NCBI RefSeq assembly: GCF_003790525.1
Contig: NZ_CP033635.1
Direction: 5' to 3' (one strand)
DNA length: 64,000 nucleotides
Origin: Escherichia coli
GTDB taxonomy: Bacteria; Pseudomonadota; Gammaproteobacteria; Enterobacterales; Enterobacteriaceae
The first letter of the stretch is position 1; each line of letters starts with the position of its first letter. The notes under the pieces were generated by a model that had not been told where the DNA came from, searched no databases, and worked only from the letters and a program-made list of their open reading frames with translations. Shown here piece by piece: positions 4,522 through 58,365 of this stretch. A program made the translations under genes and the position numbers.

Positions 4522-5562
4522 ATGATCACCATTCGTGATGTAGCGCGTCAGGCTGGCGTCTCTGTGGCAACGGTTTCCCGAGTGCTCAATAACAGCACGC
4601 TGGTCAGTGCCGACACGCGTGAAGCAGTAATGAAAGCCGTGAGTGAGCTGGATTATCGACCAAATGCCAATGCCCAGGCGCTGGCAACTCAGGTTAGCGA
4701 CACCATTGGCGTGGTGGTGATGGACGTTTCTGATGCGTTTTTCGGCGCGCTGGTAAAAGCGGTGGATTTGGTCGCCCAGCAGCATCAGAAATACGTGCTA
4801 ATCGGCAATAGCTATCATGAAGCGGAAAAAGAGCGTCACGCCATTGAGGTGTTAATTCGCCAGCGTTGTAATGCGTTGATTGTTCACTCAAAAGCATTGA
4901 GTGATGATGAACTGGCACAATTTATGGATAACATTCCCGGTATGGTGTTAATCAACCGCGTTGTGCCGGGGTACGCCCATCGTTGCGTTTGCCTGGATAA
5001 TCTCAGCGGTGCCCGAATGGCGACGCGCATGTTGCTGAATAACGGTCATCAACGTATTGGTTATCTTTCTTCCAGCCACGGCATTGAAGATGACGCCATG
5101 CGTAAAGCAGGCTGGATGAGTGCGTTGAAAGAGCAGGATATTATTCCGCCGGAAAGCTGGATTGGCACTGGCACGCCGGACATGCCGGGCGGTGAGGCGG
5201 CGATGGTTGAACTGCTGGGGCGCAATCTACAACTTACCGCTGTATTTGCTTATAACGACAATATGGCTGCTGGCGCACTGACAGCATTAAAAGATAATGG
5301 CATTGCGATTCCGTTACATCTCTCAATCATCGGTTTCGATGATATTCCCATCGCCCGTTACACCGACCCGCAATTAACGACCGTGCGTTATCCCATTGCT
5401 TCAATGGCTAAATTAGCCACCGAACTGGCCTTGCAGGGGGCAGCAGGCAATATTGATCCTCGTGCCAGCCACTGTTTTATGCCAACGTTAGTGCGTCGTC
5501 ATTCTGTCGCAACGCGCCAGAATGCGGCGGCGATCACTAACTCAACAAATCAGGCGATGTAA
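4522..5562 (+). CDS. galS: LacI/GalR-family repressor of the mgl operon
   Basis: N-terminal [27 protein letters not shown]; start set at the second ATG to give the expected length. Confidence 0.85.
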
Positions 5563-14303: not shown

Positions 14304-15430
<1,127 letters not shown>

Positions 15431-53042: not shown

Positions 53043-54356
<1,314 letters not shown>

Positions 54357-54376: not shown

Positions 54377-54399
54377 AAAAAGCGCCTGCGGGCGCTTTT
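54377..54399 (+). terminator. serS terminator
   Basis: AAAAAGCGCCTGCGGGCGCTTTT. Confidence 0.65.
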
Positions 54400-54554
54400 G
54401 CATGGTACTTAACTATATGAAAATAAATGGATTTTATTTTCATGTGTCCAGATAATGTCCATCTTTGAAGAAAAAAGTCCACAATACTGACGTTGTGGGC
54501 TTTTCTTTTTCCTGATGGTGTCGTGCCGTCAGTGCAACGAACCAAAGGGAGGGG

Positions 54555-54782
54555 ATGTTGATGTTGTTTTCCCTTCGCACCAGCTTTAAAGCCACTCTTG
54601 TTAACGATGATGGTACGCCACGGATCACGGCCGAGGTGAGGAATGTGACACCTGATGATATCGGGAAGGTGGCGGAACTTGTCAGGGATGTTTTTGGTAC
54701 TCCTTCCGGTACCTGCCGTTCAGACTCTGCGGCCAGGGTTGACAGGCAGGATGTTAACGCCGGGTGGCTTACGCGCCTCTGA
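54555..54782 (+). CDS. Hypothetical small protein (75 aa), possible distant paralogue of the 71-aa array protein
   Basis: Strong SD AGGGAGGGG before ATG; convergent with hok-like copy 1; shares the M.LF..R...GTP pattern with the 57756 ORF. Confidence 0.4.
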   Translation: MLMLFSLRTSFKATLVNDDGTPRITAEVRNVTPDDIGKVAELVRDVFGTPSGTCRSDSAARVDRQDVNAGWLTRL

Positions 54783-54932
54783 ATGATGATGCCCTCACTG
54801 GTGAGGGTGACAAAAAAGCCCTCTCAATGGCGGGCAAATCTGGTTTTTTGTTTTGTCTCTACAGGGAAAGGGCGCCATATCGGCCCACCCCAACAACCGG
54901 ATAGCGGGGAATTTCTCCCCCGCTGCGGTTTC

Positions 54933-55073
54933 TTACGGTTTACACTGCAAGAACGCCGCAAAACGCGCTCCCCAGATATCAAAGCTGAATTCACATAACG
55001 AATCGTGGACCATCCAGATGACCAGGGTTATTGTCAGGCATAAAATGCCAACAATAATCGTTTTTTGCGGTAT
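54933..55073 (-). pseudogene. Hok/Gef-family toxin homologue, copy 1, start codon ATG->ATA
   Basis: Hand-translated ...LCLTITLVIWMVHDSLCEFSFDIWGARFAAFLQCKP; the position aligned to the ATG of copy 2 is ATA (TAT at 55071-55073 on the + strand); overlapping mok-like frame 54991..55173. Confidence 0.45.
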
Positions 55074-55314
55074 AGCGCTTGCTCCTTTTACAAAGAGGCG
55101 CTAACCTTCCACTTGTCACGGTAGGAAGGGTCAGGCCTCGGTTAAACACAGATGTTTTCCGGGGCCTTTCCACATCCGGCCTTCAGGTTTTCCCTCCGGC
55201 CATCAGCCGAAAGGCACCCGTTTCTTTTTGTTGCGGCAATATTTCAGGTGTCAGTTGGGGTGGGCTGTATCTTGTCTGATGCATAAAAAAATGCCCGCGC
55301 TTTGGCGGGCAAAA

Positions 55315-55496
55315 GACAAGACTTTTCGTTTGTATATCATGGATAATGGACACCCCTTCCTGTTGTCAGGTGGCAGGCACCCGTGGTTAATCTACTGTTT
55401 TTGTGCTTTTGTCTCAACCCTGAAGTTTTCATGGAAAATCAGGGTTGCTTCATATGTGCCAGGAAGGTGCGGCTATGATAACTGCCAAAAAAAGCC
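55315..55496 (-). ncRNA. Structured repeat element X1 (candidate sRNA, subtype a)
   Basis: ~170 bp bounded by hairpins; internal perfect stems (CAACCCTGA...TCAGGGTTG, CCTTCC...GGAAGG); no SD-led ORF. Confidence 0.3.
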
Positions 55497-55525
55497 CGCT
55501 TTCCGGCGGGCAAAACAGCAATGTG

Positions 55526-55683
55526 AGTTGTCTGTCATTGATACTGGACAGCCTTCCTGTTGTCAGGTGGAAGGTACCCGTGGTTAATCTACTGTCTTTG
55601 TGCTTTTGTCTCAACCCTGAAGTTTTCATGGAAAATCAGGGTTGCTTCATGTGAACCAGGAAGGTGAGGCGATGGTAACCGCC
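55526..55683 (-). ncRNA. Structured repeat element X2 (candidate sRNA, subtype b)
   Basis: Near-identical core to X1 with a different distal end (CAGCAATGTGAGTTGTCTGTCATTGATACTGG). Confidence 0.3.
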
Positions 55684-55930
55684 AAAAAAATGCCCGCTTT
55701 CCGGCGGGCAAAACAAGGAAGTACGGATCATGTATTATTGATTACGAGGCATTCCACCATGCCCACGTTTAATTTAGCTAGTTTTCATTTTATTCACAAT
55801 ATAGTTACTTATCATATTTATGAACAAAACTGTAATTTCATCTATAGGTATAAGTGATTTGCATTAACATGTTTCTTCTGTATTGCTGTTGGTTTTCCGA
55901 TGCTGATATTTATGATACATTCAGGGGCAA

Positions 55931-56135
55931 ATGAGGTTGTTCCACAGAAACGATGTTGAGATATTTCTGCTCCAGAAAGGACAAGCTAAAAAAATAAAGT
56001 GAAATTATGATATGTCAGGGATGTTCAGGCATGTCAGTGTCTTATTAATAAACTCGTTGCTGCTGTAATAACACCAAAAAAATCAAAGCATAATCTGCAT
56101 GTTGTTCCTGATGACCCAATAACCACAAAAGAATA
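55931..56135 (+). pseudogene. Degenerate copy of the small array protein gene (frameshift/early stop)
   Basis: Begins MRLFHRNDVEI... then stops after 23 aa; the downstream DNA still aligns with the intact copy through ...CTGATGACCC(A/C)ATAACCACAAAAGAATAA. Confidence 0.4.
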
Positions 56136-56164
56136 AAAAAATGCCCGCTTTCCGGCGGGCAAAA

Positions 56165-56333
56165 CAGCAATGTGAGTTGTCTGTCATTGATACTGGACAC
56201 CCTTCCTGTTGTCAGGTGGAAGGCACCCGTGGTTAATCTACTGTCTTTGTGCTTTTGGCTCAACCCTGAAGTTTTCATGGAAAATCAGGGCTGCTTTGTG
56301 TGCGCCAGGGAAGGCGCCTCGATGGCAGGCGCA
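56165..56333 (-). ncRNA. Structured repeat element X3 (subtype b)
   Basis: Copy of X2 between hairpins at 56134 and 56333. Confidence 0.3.
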
Positions 56334-56586
56334 AAAAAAATGCCCGTGCTTCGGCGGGCAAAATAAGGAAGTACAGGTTACATGTTATTGATAAAGTAGC
56401 ATTGCTCTGTCCGTCTTTAATCTAACGAGTTTTGAGTTTTTTCACAATATTGTTACCTGTCATGTTATAGATGAAACTGCAATTTCATCTATAGGTATAA
56501 ATGATTTGTATTAATGTGTGTCCACTGTTTGTCTGCTTTCTGGTTTTCAGTTGACTGTGTTTCTGATGAATTCAGGAGGTTGTCTT

Positions 56587-56685
56587 ATGAGGCTGTTCCA
56601 CAGAAACGATATTGAGATTGAACTGCATTTCTCCTCCGGTGAGGATAAGGTTAAATCATTGTTGATGAAAAAAACAAAGATTTAA
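56587..56685 (+). pseudogene. 3'-truncated copy of the small array protein gene
   Basis: MRLFHRNDIEIELHFSSGEDKVKSLLMKKTKI*; AGGAGG SD; identical to the intact copy for 23 codons, then diverges. Confidence 0.35.
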
Positions 56686-56937
56686 TTTATTGATATAAAG
56701 GATTTGTATCAGCGTATGTCCACGCAGTGACCACATTTTCGAGAGGTAGAGTAAGCCCGCAACATTGCGGGCTTTGTCTTATAGTCTGATCACTGTTTCA
56801 AGTCGGTGAGGACACCAAAAAGAAAACCCGCAGTTTTTATGCTGCGGGTTTGTTGTTCATGTCTGTGAGATAGGGTGCCTTATCGACCTTACCCTGGCAA
56901 CCGATTGACGGGGGATTGCTCCCCCGTCGCGGTTTCC

Positions 56938-57078
56938 TTACTTCTTACATTGTAAGAACGCCGCAAACTCCGCTCCCCAGAAGCTCATCCGTATTTCGCA
57001 CAGCGAACCGTGCAATATCCAGATGATGAGGATTGCCGTCACGCAGAACGTGATGGCCGTAAGCGATTTTTGCGACAT
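56938..57078 (-). CDS. Hok/Gef-family type I toxin homologue (46 aa), copy 2, intact
   Basis: Hand-translated MSQKSLTAITFCVTAILIIWILHGSLCEIRMSFWGAEFAAFLQCKK: TM helix plus SLCE(I/L)R and AAFLxC signature of Hok proteins; fully overlapped by a mok-like frame (56945..57178). Confidence 0.65.
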   Translation of the reverse strand: MSQKSLTAITFCVTAILIIWILHGSLCEIRMSFWGAEFAAFLQCKK

Positions 57079-57335
57079 AGCACTTGCTCCTTTTCCGGAG
57101 AGGCGCTAACCTTTCACTTGTCAAGGTAATGCGGTTAGGGCCTCGGTTAAACAGAAATGTTTTCCGGGGCCTTTCCACATCCGGCCTTCAGGTTTTCCCT
57201 CCGGCCATCAGCCGAAAGGCACCCGCGCGTAATTTAACTGTTTCTTTTTGTTGCGGCAATATTTCAGGTGTCAGTTGGGGTGGGCTGTATCTTGTCTGAT
57301 GCATAAAAAAATGCCCGCGCTTCGGCGGGCAAAAA

Positions 57336-57504
57336 ACAAGACTTTTCGTTTGTATATCATGGATAATGGACACCCTTCCTGTTGTCAGGGGGAGGTACCC
57401 GTAGCTAATCTACTCACTTTGTGCCCGCAGCTCAACCCTGAAGTTTTCATGGAAAATCAGGGCTGCTTTGTGTGCGCCAGGGAAGGCGCCTCGATGGCAG
57501 GCGC
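57336..57504 (-). ncRNA. Structured repeat element X4 (subtype a)
   Basis: Copy of X1 between hairpins at 57305 and 57505. Confidence 0.3.
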
Positions 57505-57755
57505 AAAAAAAATGCCCGCTCTCCGGCGGGCAAAACAATGATCTACGTCACATTATATTGATAACCGGGCATTCCTCCATGCCCATTTTTAATTTAGCCA
57601 TTTTTCATTTTGTTCACAATATAGTTATCTATCATATTCATGAATGAAATTATAATTTCATCTATAGGTATAAATGATTTGTGTTAATATGTTTCTCCTG
57701 TCTAACTGTTTTCTCATTTTTCGATACTAGTATTTCTGATATATTCAGGGGGCGT

Positions 57756-57971
57756 ATGAGATTGTTCCGAAGAAACGATATTGAGATTGAACTGCATTTC
57801 TCCTCCGGTGAGGATAAGGTTAAATCAATAAAGGTGAAACTAAGACATGCCCGGGATGTTCAGGCGTGTCAGTGTCTTATTGATGAACTCGTTGCTGCCG
57901 GAGGAACGCCAAAAAAACAAAAATATAATCTGCACGTGGTTCCTGATGACCCCATAACCACAAAAGAATAA
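57756..57971 (+). CDS. Small basic protein (71 aa), intact copy of the array family
   Basis: MRLFRRNDIEIELHFSSGEDKVKSIKVKLRHARDVQACQCLIDELVAAGGTPKKQKYNLHVVPDDPITTKE; GGGGG SD; AT-rich promoter-like region upstream; two degenerate paralogues nearby. Confidence 0.5.
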   Translation: MRLFRRNDIEIELHFSSGEDKVKSIKVKLRHARDVQACQCLIDELVAAGGTPKKQKYNLHVVPDDPITTKE

Positions 57972-58113
57972 AAAAATGCCCGCTTTCCGGCGGGCAAAAA
58001 ACAATTTAGGTCATATTTCATCATGGATAATTAAATACTTGCCCGTGGTTGCGGGAAAGTATCTGCCGTTAATCTACTTGCCTTATGATGTCCTCTCAAC
58101 CTGATTATTGTTC

Positions 58114-58365
58114 TTAAATATCAAGATTAATCTGAGTATTCCCCCTGTGAGATCCCGGAAAATCTTCCCACGGTATCCGCTCTGTACCCTGCGGCGACGG
58201 GGCGCGTTTTGATGTGAATTTGTTAAAACCCTCCAGTGTGGTAAAGCCGATCCCGCATTCGAGGTTATTGCACTGGTAGTACTTCAGGCGAACTGTGCCT
58301 GAATCATTTTCATTGCGACTGGTGCGGATACGTGCGGATGCACCGCATAGGGGACAACGGAACAT
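58114..58365 (-). CDS. ogr: Ogr/Delta-family zinc-finger late transcription activator
   Basis: MFRCPLCG...YYQCNNLECG: CxxC...CxxxxC spacing as in P2 Ogr. Confidence 0.8.
   Translation of the reverse strand: MFRCPLCGASARIRTSRNENDSGTVRLKYYQCNNLECGIGFTTLEGFNKFTSKRAPSPQGTERIPWEDFPGSHRGNTQINLDI

What the first reader, a model, noticed from the sequence alone, without database searches (positions are those of the whole stretch)
55315..57504. Four copies (two subtypes) of a ~170-bp highly structured element: candidate sRNA family
X1 and X4 (subtype a) and X2 and X3 (subtype b) share a ~130-bp core with perfect stems (CAACCCTGA-N14-TCAGGGTTG; CCTTCC-N11-GGAAGG). Each ends, in the minus-strand sense, in a GC hairpin plus U7 tract, and there is no SD-led ORF. 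The layout predicts minus-strand transcripts of roughly 170-200 nt, the same direction as the hok genes they precede. I cannot match them to a known sRNA from memory.
Basis: partly seen in the sequence, partly recalled or inferred. Interest (0 to 1): 0.6.

Follow-up and report, generated by a model that had tools for sequence, protein, structure and literature searches.

The report
Prophage array of small-RNA genes
The four repeats are real and belong to a cluster of eight predicted small-RNA genes (about 80-97 nt each) at the end of a rare, decayed P2-like prophage in E. coli; they match no described RNA family, but expression and function are untested.

Summary
The four ~200-bp repeats exist as described. 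They are part of a larger set: a fifth, diverged copy (X5) lies beside the phage ogr gene, and three shorter relatives (Y1-Y3) are nearby.

All eight units share one layout on the minus strand:
- a promoter, TTGNNN-N17-TA(G/A)ATTA;
- a G start 7 nt downstream;
- a hairpin that begins at +1;
- an AU-rich single strand with the invariant motif UAUC(A/C)AU;
- U4, a GCCCGC hairpin and U7.

This promoter pattern occurs 9 times in 64 kb, all on one strand within 2.7 kb (0.27 expected). The ninth copy drives the intact hok gene.

The likely products are therefore 92-97 nt (X) and 78-80 nt (Y) RNAs, not 170-200 nt. The CAACCCTGA stem lies upstream of the predicted start and overlaps the -35.

The array is cargo at the end of a 21-kb tail-only P2/P88-like prophage. 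It is found in 30 of 5,426 complete E. coli genomes, at three chromosomal sites.

There is no Rfam match and no conserved ORF. I found no above-chance pairing with hok, Sok, neighbouring mRNAs, GcvB or RyhB.

Best reading: a new family of prophage "moron" sRNAs, probably Hfq-type, built on a hok-like promoter and 5' stem. The target is unknown and expression is unproven.

The parts
55285..55381 (-). X1 predicted sRNA (97 nt); promoter TTGAGA-N17-TAGATT at 55389-55417
   Evidence: CM hit 100 bits
55487..55578 (-). X2 predicted sRNA (92 nt); promoter at 55586-55614
56135..56227 (-). X3 predicted sRNA (93 nt); promoter TTGAGC-N17-TAGATT at 56235-56263
57305..57399 (-). X4 predicted sRNA (95 nt); promoter at 57407-57435, with a spacer different from X1-X3
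57970..58063 (-). X5, the diverged fifth copy (94 nt); promoter at 58071-58099, starting 15 nt after the ogr stop codon; lacks the upstream half
   Evidence: its hairpin has a different sequence but the same position
55684..55763 (-). Y1 predicted sRNA (80 nt); promoter TTGTGA-N17-TAAATT at 55771-55799
   Evidence: (41 bits to the X model)
56334..56411 (-). Y2 (78 nt), probably decayed: no 5' hairpin; promoter at 56419-56447
57506..57583 (-). Y3 predicted sRNA (78 nt); promoter at 57591-57619
55415..55447 (.). Upstream inverted repeat CAACCCTGA-N15-TCAGGGTTG of X1, overlapping the -35. The same element is at 55612-55644 (X2), 56261-56293 (X3, one G.U) and 57433-57465 (X4, one G.U). Absent from X5 and Y.
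   Evidence: possible operator or UP-element region (inference)
55418..55484 (-). Promoter-distal half of X1 (small GC hairpin plus the inverted repeat). Equivalents are at 55615-55683, 56264-56333 and 57436-57505. It lies between the previous terminator and the -35.
56815..57259 (-). hok2 unit: promoter TTGCCG-N17-TAAATT at 57231-57259, leader, Hok CDS 56938-57078, fbi-like AAGGCACCC and its own terminator
   Evidence: (sok model, 46 bits)
54810..55219 (-). hok1 pseudogene unit: 15-nt deletion of the -10, ATG->ATA; it ends in a degenerate copy of the common terminator (54813-54838)
   Evidence: (D2)
57757..57971 (+). orf71, a small protein of unknown function, convergent with X5 and divergent from Y3; pseudogene copies start at 55930 and 56588
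58114..58365 (-). ogr-like late activator, the last conserved prophage gene before the array
54385..54399 (.). att core CCTGCGGGCGCTTTT (3' half of the serS terminator). Prophage DNA starts at 54400, with GGACA-type arm repeats at about 54445-54462.

Best explanation
The X repeats, with X5 and the Y units, are self-contained small-RNA genes ("morons") carried as cargo between ogr and the attachment site of a cryptic P2/P88-like prophage.

Each is transcribed on the minus strand from its own sigma-70 promoter, TTGNNN-N17-TA(G/A)ATTA, starting at a G 7 nt downstream. Transcription stops at a strong intrinsic terminator. This gives stable RNAs of 92-97 nt (X) or 78-80 nt (Y).

The RNA has three parts:
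- a 5'-terminal hairpin that starts at +1;
- a 30-40-nt AU-rich single strand with the invariant motif UAUC(A/C)AU(GA);
- a U4 / GC-hairpin / U7 module of the kind that binds Hfq.

I infer that they act in trans as base-pairing regulators through the single-stranded region, on host or competing-phage mRNAs that are not in this window. The promoter and the 5' stem are shared with, and probably derived from, the hok toxin transcription unit. The common terminator doubles as the homology at which cassettes (hok, X, Y-orf71) are gained, lost and shuffled.

Shown: the sequence signals, their conservation among diverged paralogues, and the mobile context. Inferred: transcription, Hfq dependence and trans action.
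For: 1. The promoter pattern TTG-N20-TARATTA occurs 9 times in the window. All are on the minus strand within 55388-58099, against 0.27 +/- 0.51 expected. The nine are 5 X, 3 Y and hok2.
2. The hexamers are invariant in X5 and X4, although their spacers differ from X1-X3 at about half the positions. X5 is only ~60% identical overall.
3. All six known X variants fold into the same architecture. X5 and the L002 variant reach the 5' hairpin with different sequences. RNAalifold finds 5 of 19 pairs with double compensatory changes. Y1 and Y3 have an unrelated 5' hairpin at the same position.
4. A covariance model built from X finds the Y units full-length at 31-43 bits.
5. Eight identical-type terminators with 7-8 U follow the units.
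6. There is no conserved ORF.
7. The array moves with the prophage to three chromosomal sites: serS, zapB and copA.
8. The related complete phage P88_4B11 and other P2-like phages lack the array. P88 has hok directly behind ogr, with a TTGCCG-N17-TAGATT promoter.
9. The X promoter and 5' end align with the hok2 and P88 hok promoter and 5' end (z 4-5, at most 2 of 200 shuffles).
10. Array composition varies by whole cassettes bounded by the terminator.
Against: - There is no expression data of any kind.
- Only six sequence variants exist in every database searched, so covariation support is thin.
- Orthologues are 97-100% identical, which leaves no power to detect selection.
- Fold z-scores are modest, -1.1 to -3.2.
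- No target was found. The seed complement occurs once outside the array, which is the chance level. Pairing with neighbouring transcripts and with GcvB and RyhB is within the shuffle distributions.
- The host element is decaying. hok1 and two orf71 copies are pseudogenes, Y2 has lost its hairpin, and the tape-measure gene is frameshifted. Some units may therefore be dead.
Confidence: 0.5

Rival explanations
1. Non-functional relics. The units are scars of repeated recombination and deletion among hok-type cassettes in a dying prophage. The similarity among copies reflects recent duplication and gene conversion, not selection. Any role is at the DNA level, as homology for cassette exchange.
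For: - The host element is defective and holds pseudogenes.
- The copies are mosaics with crossovers inside the core.
- The hok cassette is flanked by terminator repeats and is absent in L002 and L006.
- X2 and X3 are 95% identical.
- The family is confined to one prophage lineage.
Against: X5 and the Y units are old paralogues, about 60% identical or less. They still keep exact promoter hexamers, the 17-bp spacing, a G start, a hairpin at +1 (with a different sequence), the UAUCMAU motif and the U4-hairpin-U7 module. Neutral decay should have hit these as often as the spacers.
Confidence: 0.2
2. Local cis roles only. The promoter-terminator units act as convergent or antisense partners and insulators for the + strand genes: X3 and X5 abut the 3' end of orf71, and Y sits opposite its upstream region. 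They would also stop read-through from ogr toward serS.
For: - The X5 U-tract overlaps the orf71 stop codon, and there is no + strand terminator there.
- Y is divergent from orf71, with a palindrome between them.
- Nine same-direction terminators lie within 3.2 kb.
Against: X1, X2 and X4 have no + strand gene opposite them. The orf71 start site is unknown. The conserved single-stranded motif is not explained by this reading.
Confidence: 0.1
3. One reading: each ~170-200-bp repeat is one highly structured minus-strand transcript containing both stems.
For: Terminators bound each repeat. The A->G change in X3 and X4 keeps the CAACCCUGA stem as a G.U pair on the minus-strand RNA only.
Against: - There is no promoter-like site between the preceding terminator and the repeat start.
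- X5 and Y lack the upstream half yet keep the promoter-to-terminator core.
- The stem overlaps a conserved -35.
- The stem is degraded in the L002/L006 X(a) copy.
Confidence: 0.08
4. RNA decoy for the Sok antitoxin. X1-X4 RNAs imitate part of the hok mRNA leader and titrate Sok, which would tune Hok killing.
For: - The X hairpin aligns with the Sok-target stem-loop of hok1: CCTTCC-ACC-TGACAA-GGAAGG (z 4.5; at most 2 of 500 shuffles).
- The predicted Sok1-X1/2/3 duplex is -36 to -38 kcal/mol, against -22 to -24 +/- 3.7 for shuffles (0 of 300).
- X(a) always sits next to hok when hok is present.
Against: - Similarity does not extend to the region complementary to the Sok 5' tail.
- For hok2 and P88 hok the hairpin match is not significant, and the Sok2 duplex is weak (6-11 of 300 shuffles).
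- X5 and Y show none of this similarity.
- The hairpin can equally be read as a shortened hok 5' stem (GGGUGCCUU..ACCUGA..GGAAGG).
- The stems are self-complementary, which inflates the duplex scores.
Confidence: 0.07

Closest known systems
hok mRNA promoter and 5' leader (hok/sok type I toxin-antitoxin; Rfam RF01794 models this leader)
   Same: The same promoter type (TTGNNN-N17-TA(G/A)ATTA, then 7 nt, then G), the same 5' end (GGGUGCCUU), a CCUUCC/GGAAGG stem, the same strand, and physical adjacency. hok1 even ends in the common terminator.
   Different: X stops after ~95 nt. It has no mok/hok ORF and no region complementary to the Sok tail. It does not score against RF01794 at E<=10. X5 and Y share only the promoter geometry.
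Prophage-encoded Hfq-associated sRNAs of pathogenic E. coli: AgvB/AsxR (PMC4104026), Pas sRNAs (bioRxiv 10.64898/2026.05.13.724894), Esr41, DicF, svsR
   Same: Short moron-type genes in prophages, with variable copy number, a 3' stem-loop plus poly-U, and diverging seeds among paralogues. PasA flanks often contain Sok hits. The X(b) 3' half aligns weakly along the whole AgvB model, with a CA-rich hairpin and a similar GCCCG terminator.
   Different: Those sRNAs come from lambdoid/Stx phages, are dispersed rather than tandem, and occur in more than 1,000 genomes. X is in a P2-like remnant in 30 genomes. The AgvB score is 17-23 bits against a cut-off of 56. There is no above-chance pairing with GcvB.
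Tandem repeated sRNA loci next to type I toxins: Sib/QUAD with ibs, Rdl/LDR with ldr
   Same: Several ~100-200-bp structured repeats in tandem, each with its own promoter and terminator, close to small-toxin genes.
   Different: No small hydrophobic ORF is conserved on the opposite strand. There are no Rfam hits to Sib, Rdl or related models.
Sibling sRNAs in tandem (OmrA/OmrB, PrrF1/PrrF2, Qrr)
   Same: Adjacent paralogues with a shared core and divergent parts.
   Different: Those are core-genome genes with known regulators and targets. The units here are mobile cargo with unknown inputs and outputs.

Membership tests
Any curated Rfam family (4,227 models) | Score at or above the family's gathering threshold | tested here: not met
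   Only a tRNA passes in the whole window. The best sub-threshold hits on X are RyhB at 24 bits (cut-off 55) and AgvB at 23 bits (cut-off 56), driven mostly by the terminator.
hok/sok locus (RF01794 leader plus Hok ORF) | Leader matching RF01794 followed by mok/hok reading frames | tested here: not met
   hok1 and hok2 leaders score 48 and 46 bits. X units give no RF01794 hit at E<=10 and end at a terminator after ~95 nt.
hok/sok locus | hok-type promoter and 5' end | tested here: met
   X1 and X3 align with the hok2 and P88 hok promoter and 5' end at z 4-5. They share the pattern TTG-N20-TARATTA.
Hfq-type trans-acting sRNA (class, not a homology family) | Rho-independent terminator with a tail of at least 6-7 U, preceded by a U-rich stretch and an upstream hairpin | tested here: met
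   All eight units have U4, a GC hairpin and U7-8.
Hfq-type trans-acting sRNA | Own promoter and a discrete transcript | tested here: inconclusive
   The consensus promoter is conserved in every unit, but no transcript data can be reached with these tools.
Hfq-type trans-acting sRNA | Hfq binding and seed pairing with target mRNAs | not testable with these tools
   No genome-wide target search or binding data was possible. The local candidates tested negative.
Phage moron | A promoter-gene-terminator unit inserted between conserved phage genes and absent from close relatives | tested here: met
   The array lies between ogr and att. It is absent in P88_4B11, PhiR44_2, Wphi, SEN5 and the Klebsiella phages checked.
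Dispersed extragenic repeats (REP/BIME, ERIC and similar) | Many copies scattered over the chromosome of most strains | tested here: not met
   127 places in 30 of 5,426 genomes, 2-8 per genome. In the four carrier genomes inspected they sit at this prophage end. No hits in plasmids or phages.
attP arm or integrase-binding repeats | Position next to the att core; arm-type repeats shared by both prophage ends | tested here: not met
   The att core is at 54385-54399, with GGACA-type repeats within ~100 bp at both ends. The X array starts about 900 bp further in.
Anti-sRNA sponges (AgvB-like) | Mimic of a core sRNA's target site, with strong complementarity to that sRNA | tested here: not met
   Duplexes with K-12 GcvB and RyhB are within the shuffle distributions. 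The one exception, among 18 tests, is decayed Y2 against RyhB.
Pas sRNAs | Sequence similarity to PasA-D of EPEC E2348/69 | tested here: inconclusive
   The Pas sequences are not printed in the paper or its supplement. Indirectly, Pas genes occur in 1,362 genomes, whereas blastn with X finds only 30, so close similarity is excluded.

The most novel reading that the evidence does not exclude
X1-X4 RNAs are miniature hok leaders (hok promoter, hok 5' end and a Sok-target-like stem-loop) that bind the Sok antitoxin RNA. They would act as an anti-antitoxin layer that sets the threshold for Hok killing, for example during prophage loss or superinfection. No RNA sponge for a type I antitoxin has been described, to my knowledge.
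Probability: 0.07. Interest if true: 0.7.

Novelty: new member of a known kind. Interest (0 to 1): 0.4.

Why it matters
If transcribed, this is an undescribed sRNA family. It would be an unusually dense example of phage-borne riboregulators: eight genes in 2.8 kb. The genes sit on a shared promoter/5'-stem/terminator framework that is also used by a hok toxin gene.

That would show how a prophage can generate and shuffle new regulatory RNAs from parts of a toxin-antitoxin locus. It would also add P2-like elements to the lambdoid phages already known to carry sRNAs.

Practical importance is limited. The element is rare (0.55% of complete E. coli genomes, many from poultry), and no target or phenotype is known.

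Tried and rejected
1. Known RNA family. Rfam gave nothing relevant at gathering thresholds or at permissive thresholds.
2. Wider distribution, sought for covariation:
   - blastn against phages and plasmids gave no match.
   - An exact promoter-pattern scan found 0 hits in one genome per GTDB species, 3 IMG/VR contigs and 5 metagenome contigs. None was a new variant.
3. Hidden protein gene. No frame is conserved among copies.
4. att-site or integrase arm repeats. The att core and arms lie about 900 bp away.
5. General feature of P2-like phages after ogr. Wphi, SEN5, two Klebsiella phages, P88_4B11 and PhiR44_2 have none.
6. Pairing of the single-stranded regions with hok1/hok2 mRNAs, Sok1/2, orf71, ORF75, ogr and the gpD 5' region. 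None was beyond the shuffles. A window-wide duplex scan returned only the trivial antisense self-hits.
7. Seed-complement search. Only one hit outside the array in the window (in gpD) and one more in the prophage's early region in L005, which is the chance level.
8. Anti-GcvB or RyhB-like role, suggested by weak Rfam alignments. No support from K-12 GcvB and RyhB.
9. Clues from neighbouring proteins. orf71 matches only the C-terminal part of the unknown-function family phrog_14142 and has homologues only in E. coli. ORF75 matches nothing.
10. Orthologue comparison for selection. The lineages are 97-100% identical, so there is no power.
11. One CM hit elsewhere in the window (15312-15405, 22 bits) lies inside a coding region and was dismissed.
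12. A terminator-pattern search returned nothing because I miscounted the loop length.
Full report
**Context.**
- The window is E. coli chromosome (ftsK-lolA-rarA-serS). serS ends at 54356, and homology shared by essentially all 5,426 complete E. coli genomes stops at about 54399.
- From 54400 onward lies an integrated element. In the identical locus of strain LH10-b-1 it runs for about 21 kb to an integrase next to dmsA.
- It carries int, a C-type repressor, cox, a few small genes, and P2-type baseplate, fibre, sheath, tube and tape-measure genes, then gpD and ogr. It has no head, terminase, replication or lysis genes, and its tape-measure gene is frameshifted.
- Its closest sequenced phages are P88-like Xuanwuvirus, with about 70% Ogr identity and the same divergent D-ogr / sheath arrangement.
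- The two ends share the 15-bp core AAAAGCGCCCGCAGG. This is half of the serS terminator, and GGACA-type arm repeats lie within ~100 bp.
- The finding lies in the 3.7 kb between this att end and ogr (58114-58365, minus strand).

**The observation.**
- The four repeats are real (family D1; alignment A1).
- Each ends, in the minus-strand sense, in a GCCCGC-N6-GCGGGC hairpin followed by 7-8 T. The scan found 17 terminator-like sites in 4.1 kb against 5.2 +/- 2.4 in shuffles.
- The same 30-nt terminator occurs nine times in 3.2 kb (family D2).
- The a/b subtypes apply only to the terminator-proximal third. In the distal third X1 pairs with X2 and X3 with X4, so the copies are recombinant mosaics.
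- No ORF is conserved between copies on either strand.

- A fifth copy, X5 (57970-58099), begins 15 nt after the ogr stop codon. It is only ~60% identical to the others and lacks their distal half.
- Three shorter units (Y1-Y3) carry the same terminator. A covariance model built from the X RNAs finds them over their full length at 31-43 bits.

**The unit of transcription.**
- Each X starts directly after the T-run of the preceding terminator. A 170-200-nt RNA would therefore have no promoter.
- Instead, every X contains TTGAG(A/C)-17 nt-TAGATT on the minus strand.
- The hexamers are identical in all five copies. The spacer of X4 and X5 differs from X1-X3 at about half its positions.
- The Y units have TTGTGA-17 nt-TA(A/G)ATT, and the intact hok2 gene has TTGCCG-17 nt-TAAATT.
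- In all nine cases an A follows, and a G lies 7 nt after the -10.
- The pattern TTG-N20-TARATTA occurs nine times in the 64-kb window. All nine are on the minus strand between 55388 and 58099, against 0.27 +/- 0.51 in shuffles.
- Starting at that G, the RNAs are 97, 92, 93, 95 and 94 nt (X1-X5) and 80, 78 and 78 nt (Y1-Y3).
- The CAACCCTGA-N15-TCAGGGTTG repeat then lies upstream of the start, with one arm overlapping the -35. X5 and Y do not have it. It may be an operator or UP-like region, but that is inference only.

**Anatomy of the predicted RNAs.**
- All six X sequence variants known anywhere fold alike: a hairpin that begins at nucleotide 1, 30-40 unpaired AU-rich nucleotides, then U4, the terminator hairpin and U7.
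- Fold z-scores run from -1.1 to -3.2.
- X5 forms its 5' hairpin from an unrelated sequence (GAUACUU.CCCG...CGGG.AAGUAUU). The L002/L006 variant changes paired positions consistently.
- RNAalifold reports 5 of 19 pairs with changes on both sides. With six sequences this is only suggestive.
- Y1 and Y3 have yet another hairpin (GGCAU-N6-AUGCC) at +1. Y2 has lost it.
- In the single-stranded part the motif UAUC(A/C)AU is invariant across X and Y, followed directly by GA in every X.
- A 5'-terminal stem plus a U-rich / hairpin / poly-U 3' module is the standard build of stable enterobacterial Hfq-binding sRNAs. This is established knowledge; Hfq binding itself was not testable here.

**Relation to hok.**
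- In phage P88_4B11, hok follows ogr directly. Its promoter TTGCCG-N17-TAGATT-ACGCGCG-GGTGCC sits where X5's promoter sits in the window.
- Local alignments, all in the same orientation, link the X1/X3 promoter and 5' end to those of hok2 and P88 hok (z 4-5). They also link the X2/X3 hairpin to the Sok-target stem-loop of hok1 (z 4.5), and the X terminator to the 3' end of hok1.
- Beyond the hairpin the similarity is not significant. X5 shows none.
- The hairpin can equally be read as a shortened version of the first hok stem (GGGUGCCUU...ACCUGA...GGAAGG).
- I conclude that X shares, and probably derives from, the hok promoter and 5' stem.
- The stronger claim, that X is a Sok decoy, rests on one hairpin match and a favourable predicted Sok1-X duplex. 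The absence of the region recognised by the Sok tail weakens it.
- hok1 itself is dead: a 15-nt deletion removes its -10 and its ATG has become ATA. hok2 is intact.

**Distribution and dynamics.**
- blastn finds the element in 30 of 5,426 complete E. coli genomes, with 2-8 copies each and never on plasmids.
- It was not found in 50,697 phage records, 72,556 plasmids, or one genome per GTDB species. It was found in only 3 IMG/VR and 5 metagenome contigs.
- The prophage carrying it sits at serS, zapB or copA in different strains, so the array travels with the prophage.
- Arrays differ by whole cassettes. L002 and L006 have X5-orf71-Y-X(b)-X(a) and no hok. SCU-115 lacks the hok2-X4 block. L004 has an IS10 inserted in one unit.
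- The hok1 cassette is bracketed by two terminator copies 475 bp apart. Where it is absent, a single terminator abuts ORF75.
- The common terminator therefore looks like the homology at which cassettes are exchanged. That is inference.
- Orthologous copies in the different lineages are 97-100% identical, which gives no power to measure selection.
- The argument for function rests on the diverged paralogues. X5 and Y keep the promoter hexamers, spacing, start geometry, a +1 hairpin, the motif and the terminator while the rest has drifted.

**Search for a mechanism.**
- The single-stranded regions of X(a), X(b), X5, Y1 and Y3 show no pairing beyond dinucleotide shuffles with hok1/hok2 mRNAs, Sok1/2, orf71, ORF75, ogr or the gpD 5' region.
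- The seed complement TCATKGATA occurs only once in the window outside the array, plus once more in the prophage's early region in L005. That is the chance level.
- Weak Rfam alignments of X(b) to RyhB (a shared CUCACAUUGC) and to AgvB (a CA-rich hairpin and a similar terminator) prompted a test against real K-12 GcvB and RyhB. Nothing stood out except decayed Y2 against RyhB, one of 18 tests.
- The neighbouring small proteins give no lead.
- The target is therefore unknown. By architecture and by precedent for prophage sRNAs I commit to trans-acting, probably Hfq-dependent base-pairing. The precedents are AgvB/AsxR (PMC4104026) and the Pas sRNAs, whose flanks also often hold Sok (bioRxiv 10.64898/2026.05.13.724894).
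- I hold this with moderate confidence. The main rival is non-functional or DNA-level relics.

**Verdict.**
- This is a new, narrowly distributed member of a known kind, prophage moron sRNAs. It has one notable feature: eight units and a toxin gene share one promoter/terminator framework.
- Interest is moderate, and everything depends on showing transcription.

Noticed in passing
window 55684-55799, 56334-56447, 57506-57619 (minus strand): A second family of three ~80-nt sRNA-like units (Y1-Y3). They have the same promoter type and terminator as X, and each lies upstream of and divergent from a copy of a 71-aa ORF.
   Followed up: partly
window 57757-57971 (+); pseudogene copies from 55930 and 56588: A small ORF (71 aa) in three copies, of which only one is intact. 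It matches only the C-terminal part of the unknown-function family phrog_14142 and has homologues only in E. coli. An operator-like palindrome, TATAGATGAAA-N5-TTTCATCTATA (best copy 56466-56494), lies between it and Y.
   Followed up: partly
window 54810-55219 compared with 56815-57259 (minus strand): Two hok/sok-type loci. hok1 is a pseudogene (15-nt deletion of the -10, ATG->ATA) but keeps a good antisense promoter (TTGTCA-16-AATAAT, 55031-55058). This may be an orphan Sok gene. hok2 is intact.
   Followed up: partly
window 54400 to beyond 64000; L005 22197-43404: The host element is a ~21-kb P2/P88-like prophage with tail genes only (no head, terminase, replication or lysis genes; tape-measure gene frameshifted). 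It is either a decaying remnant or a possible tailocin-like cluster.
   Followed up: partly
window 54385-54399; L001 around 5100-5125: The prophage integrates into intrinsic terminators. Its att core CCTGCGGGCGCTTTT is the 3' half of the serS terminator, and the same core is used at the zapB terminator in strain SCU-115. A third lineage sits next to copA.
   Followed up: partly
window 54555-54782 (+): A 75-aa ORF at the very edge of the prophage. It is present in all lineages (about 92% DNA identity over the CDS between the serS and copA lineages) and matches no family in PHROGs or NCBIfam.
   Followed up: partly
L004 1-130 (IMG/VR contig): An IS10 end (CTGATGAATCCCCTAATGATTTT...) is inserted into the promoter-distal half of an X unit, truncating the array in that contig.
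   Followed up: no
window 56753-56774 and 56824-56851: Two further GC hairpins of a different sequence lie between the truncated orf71 copy and hok2. The second has T-runs on both sides and looks like a bidirectional terminator serving hok2.
   Followed up: no
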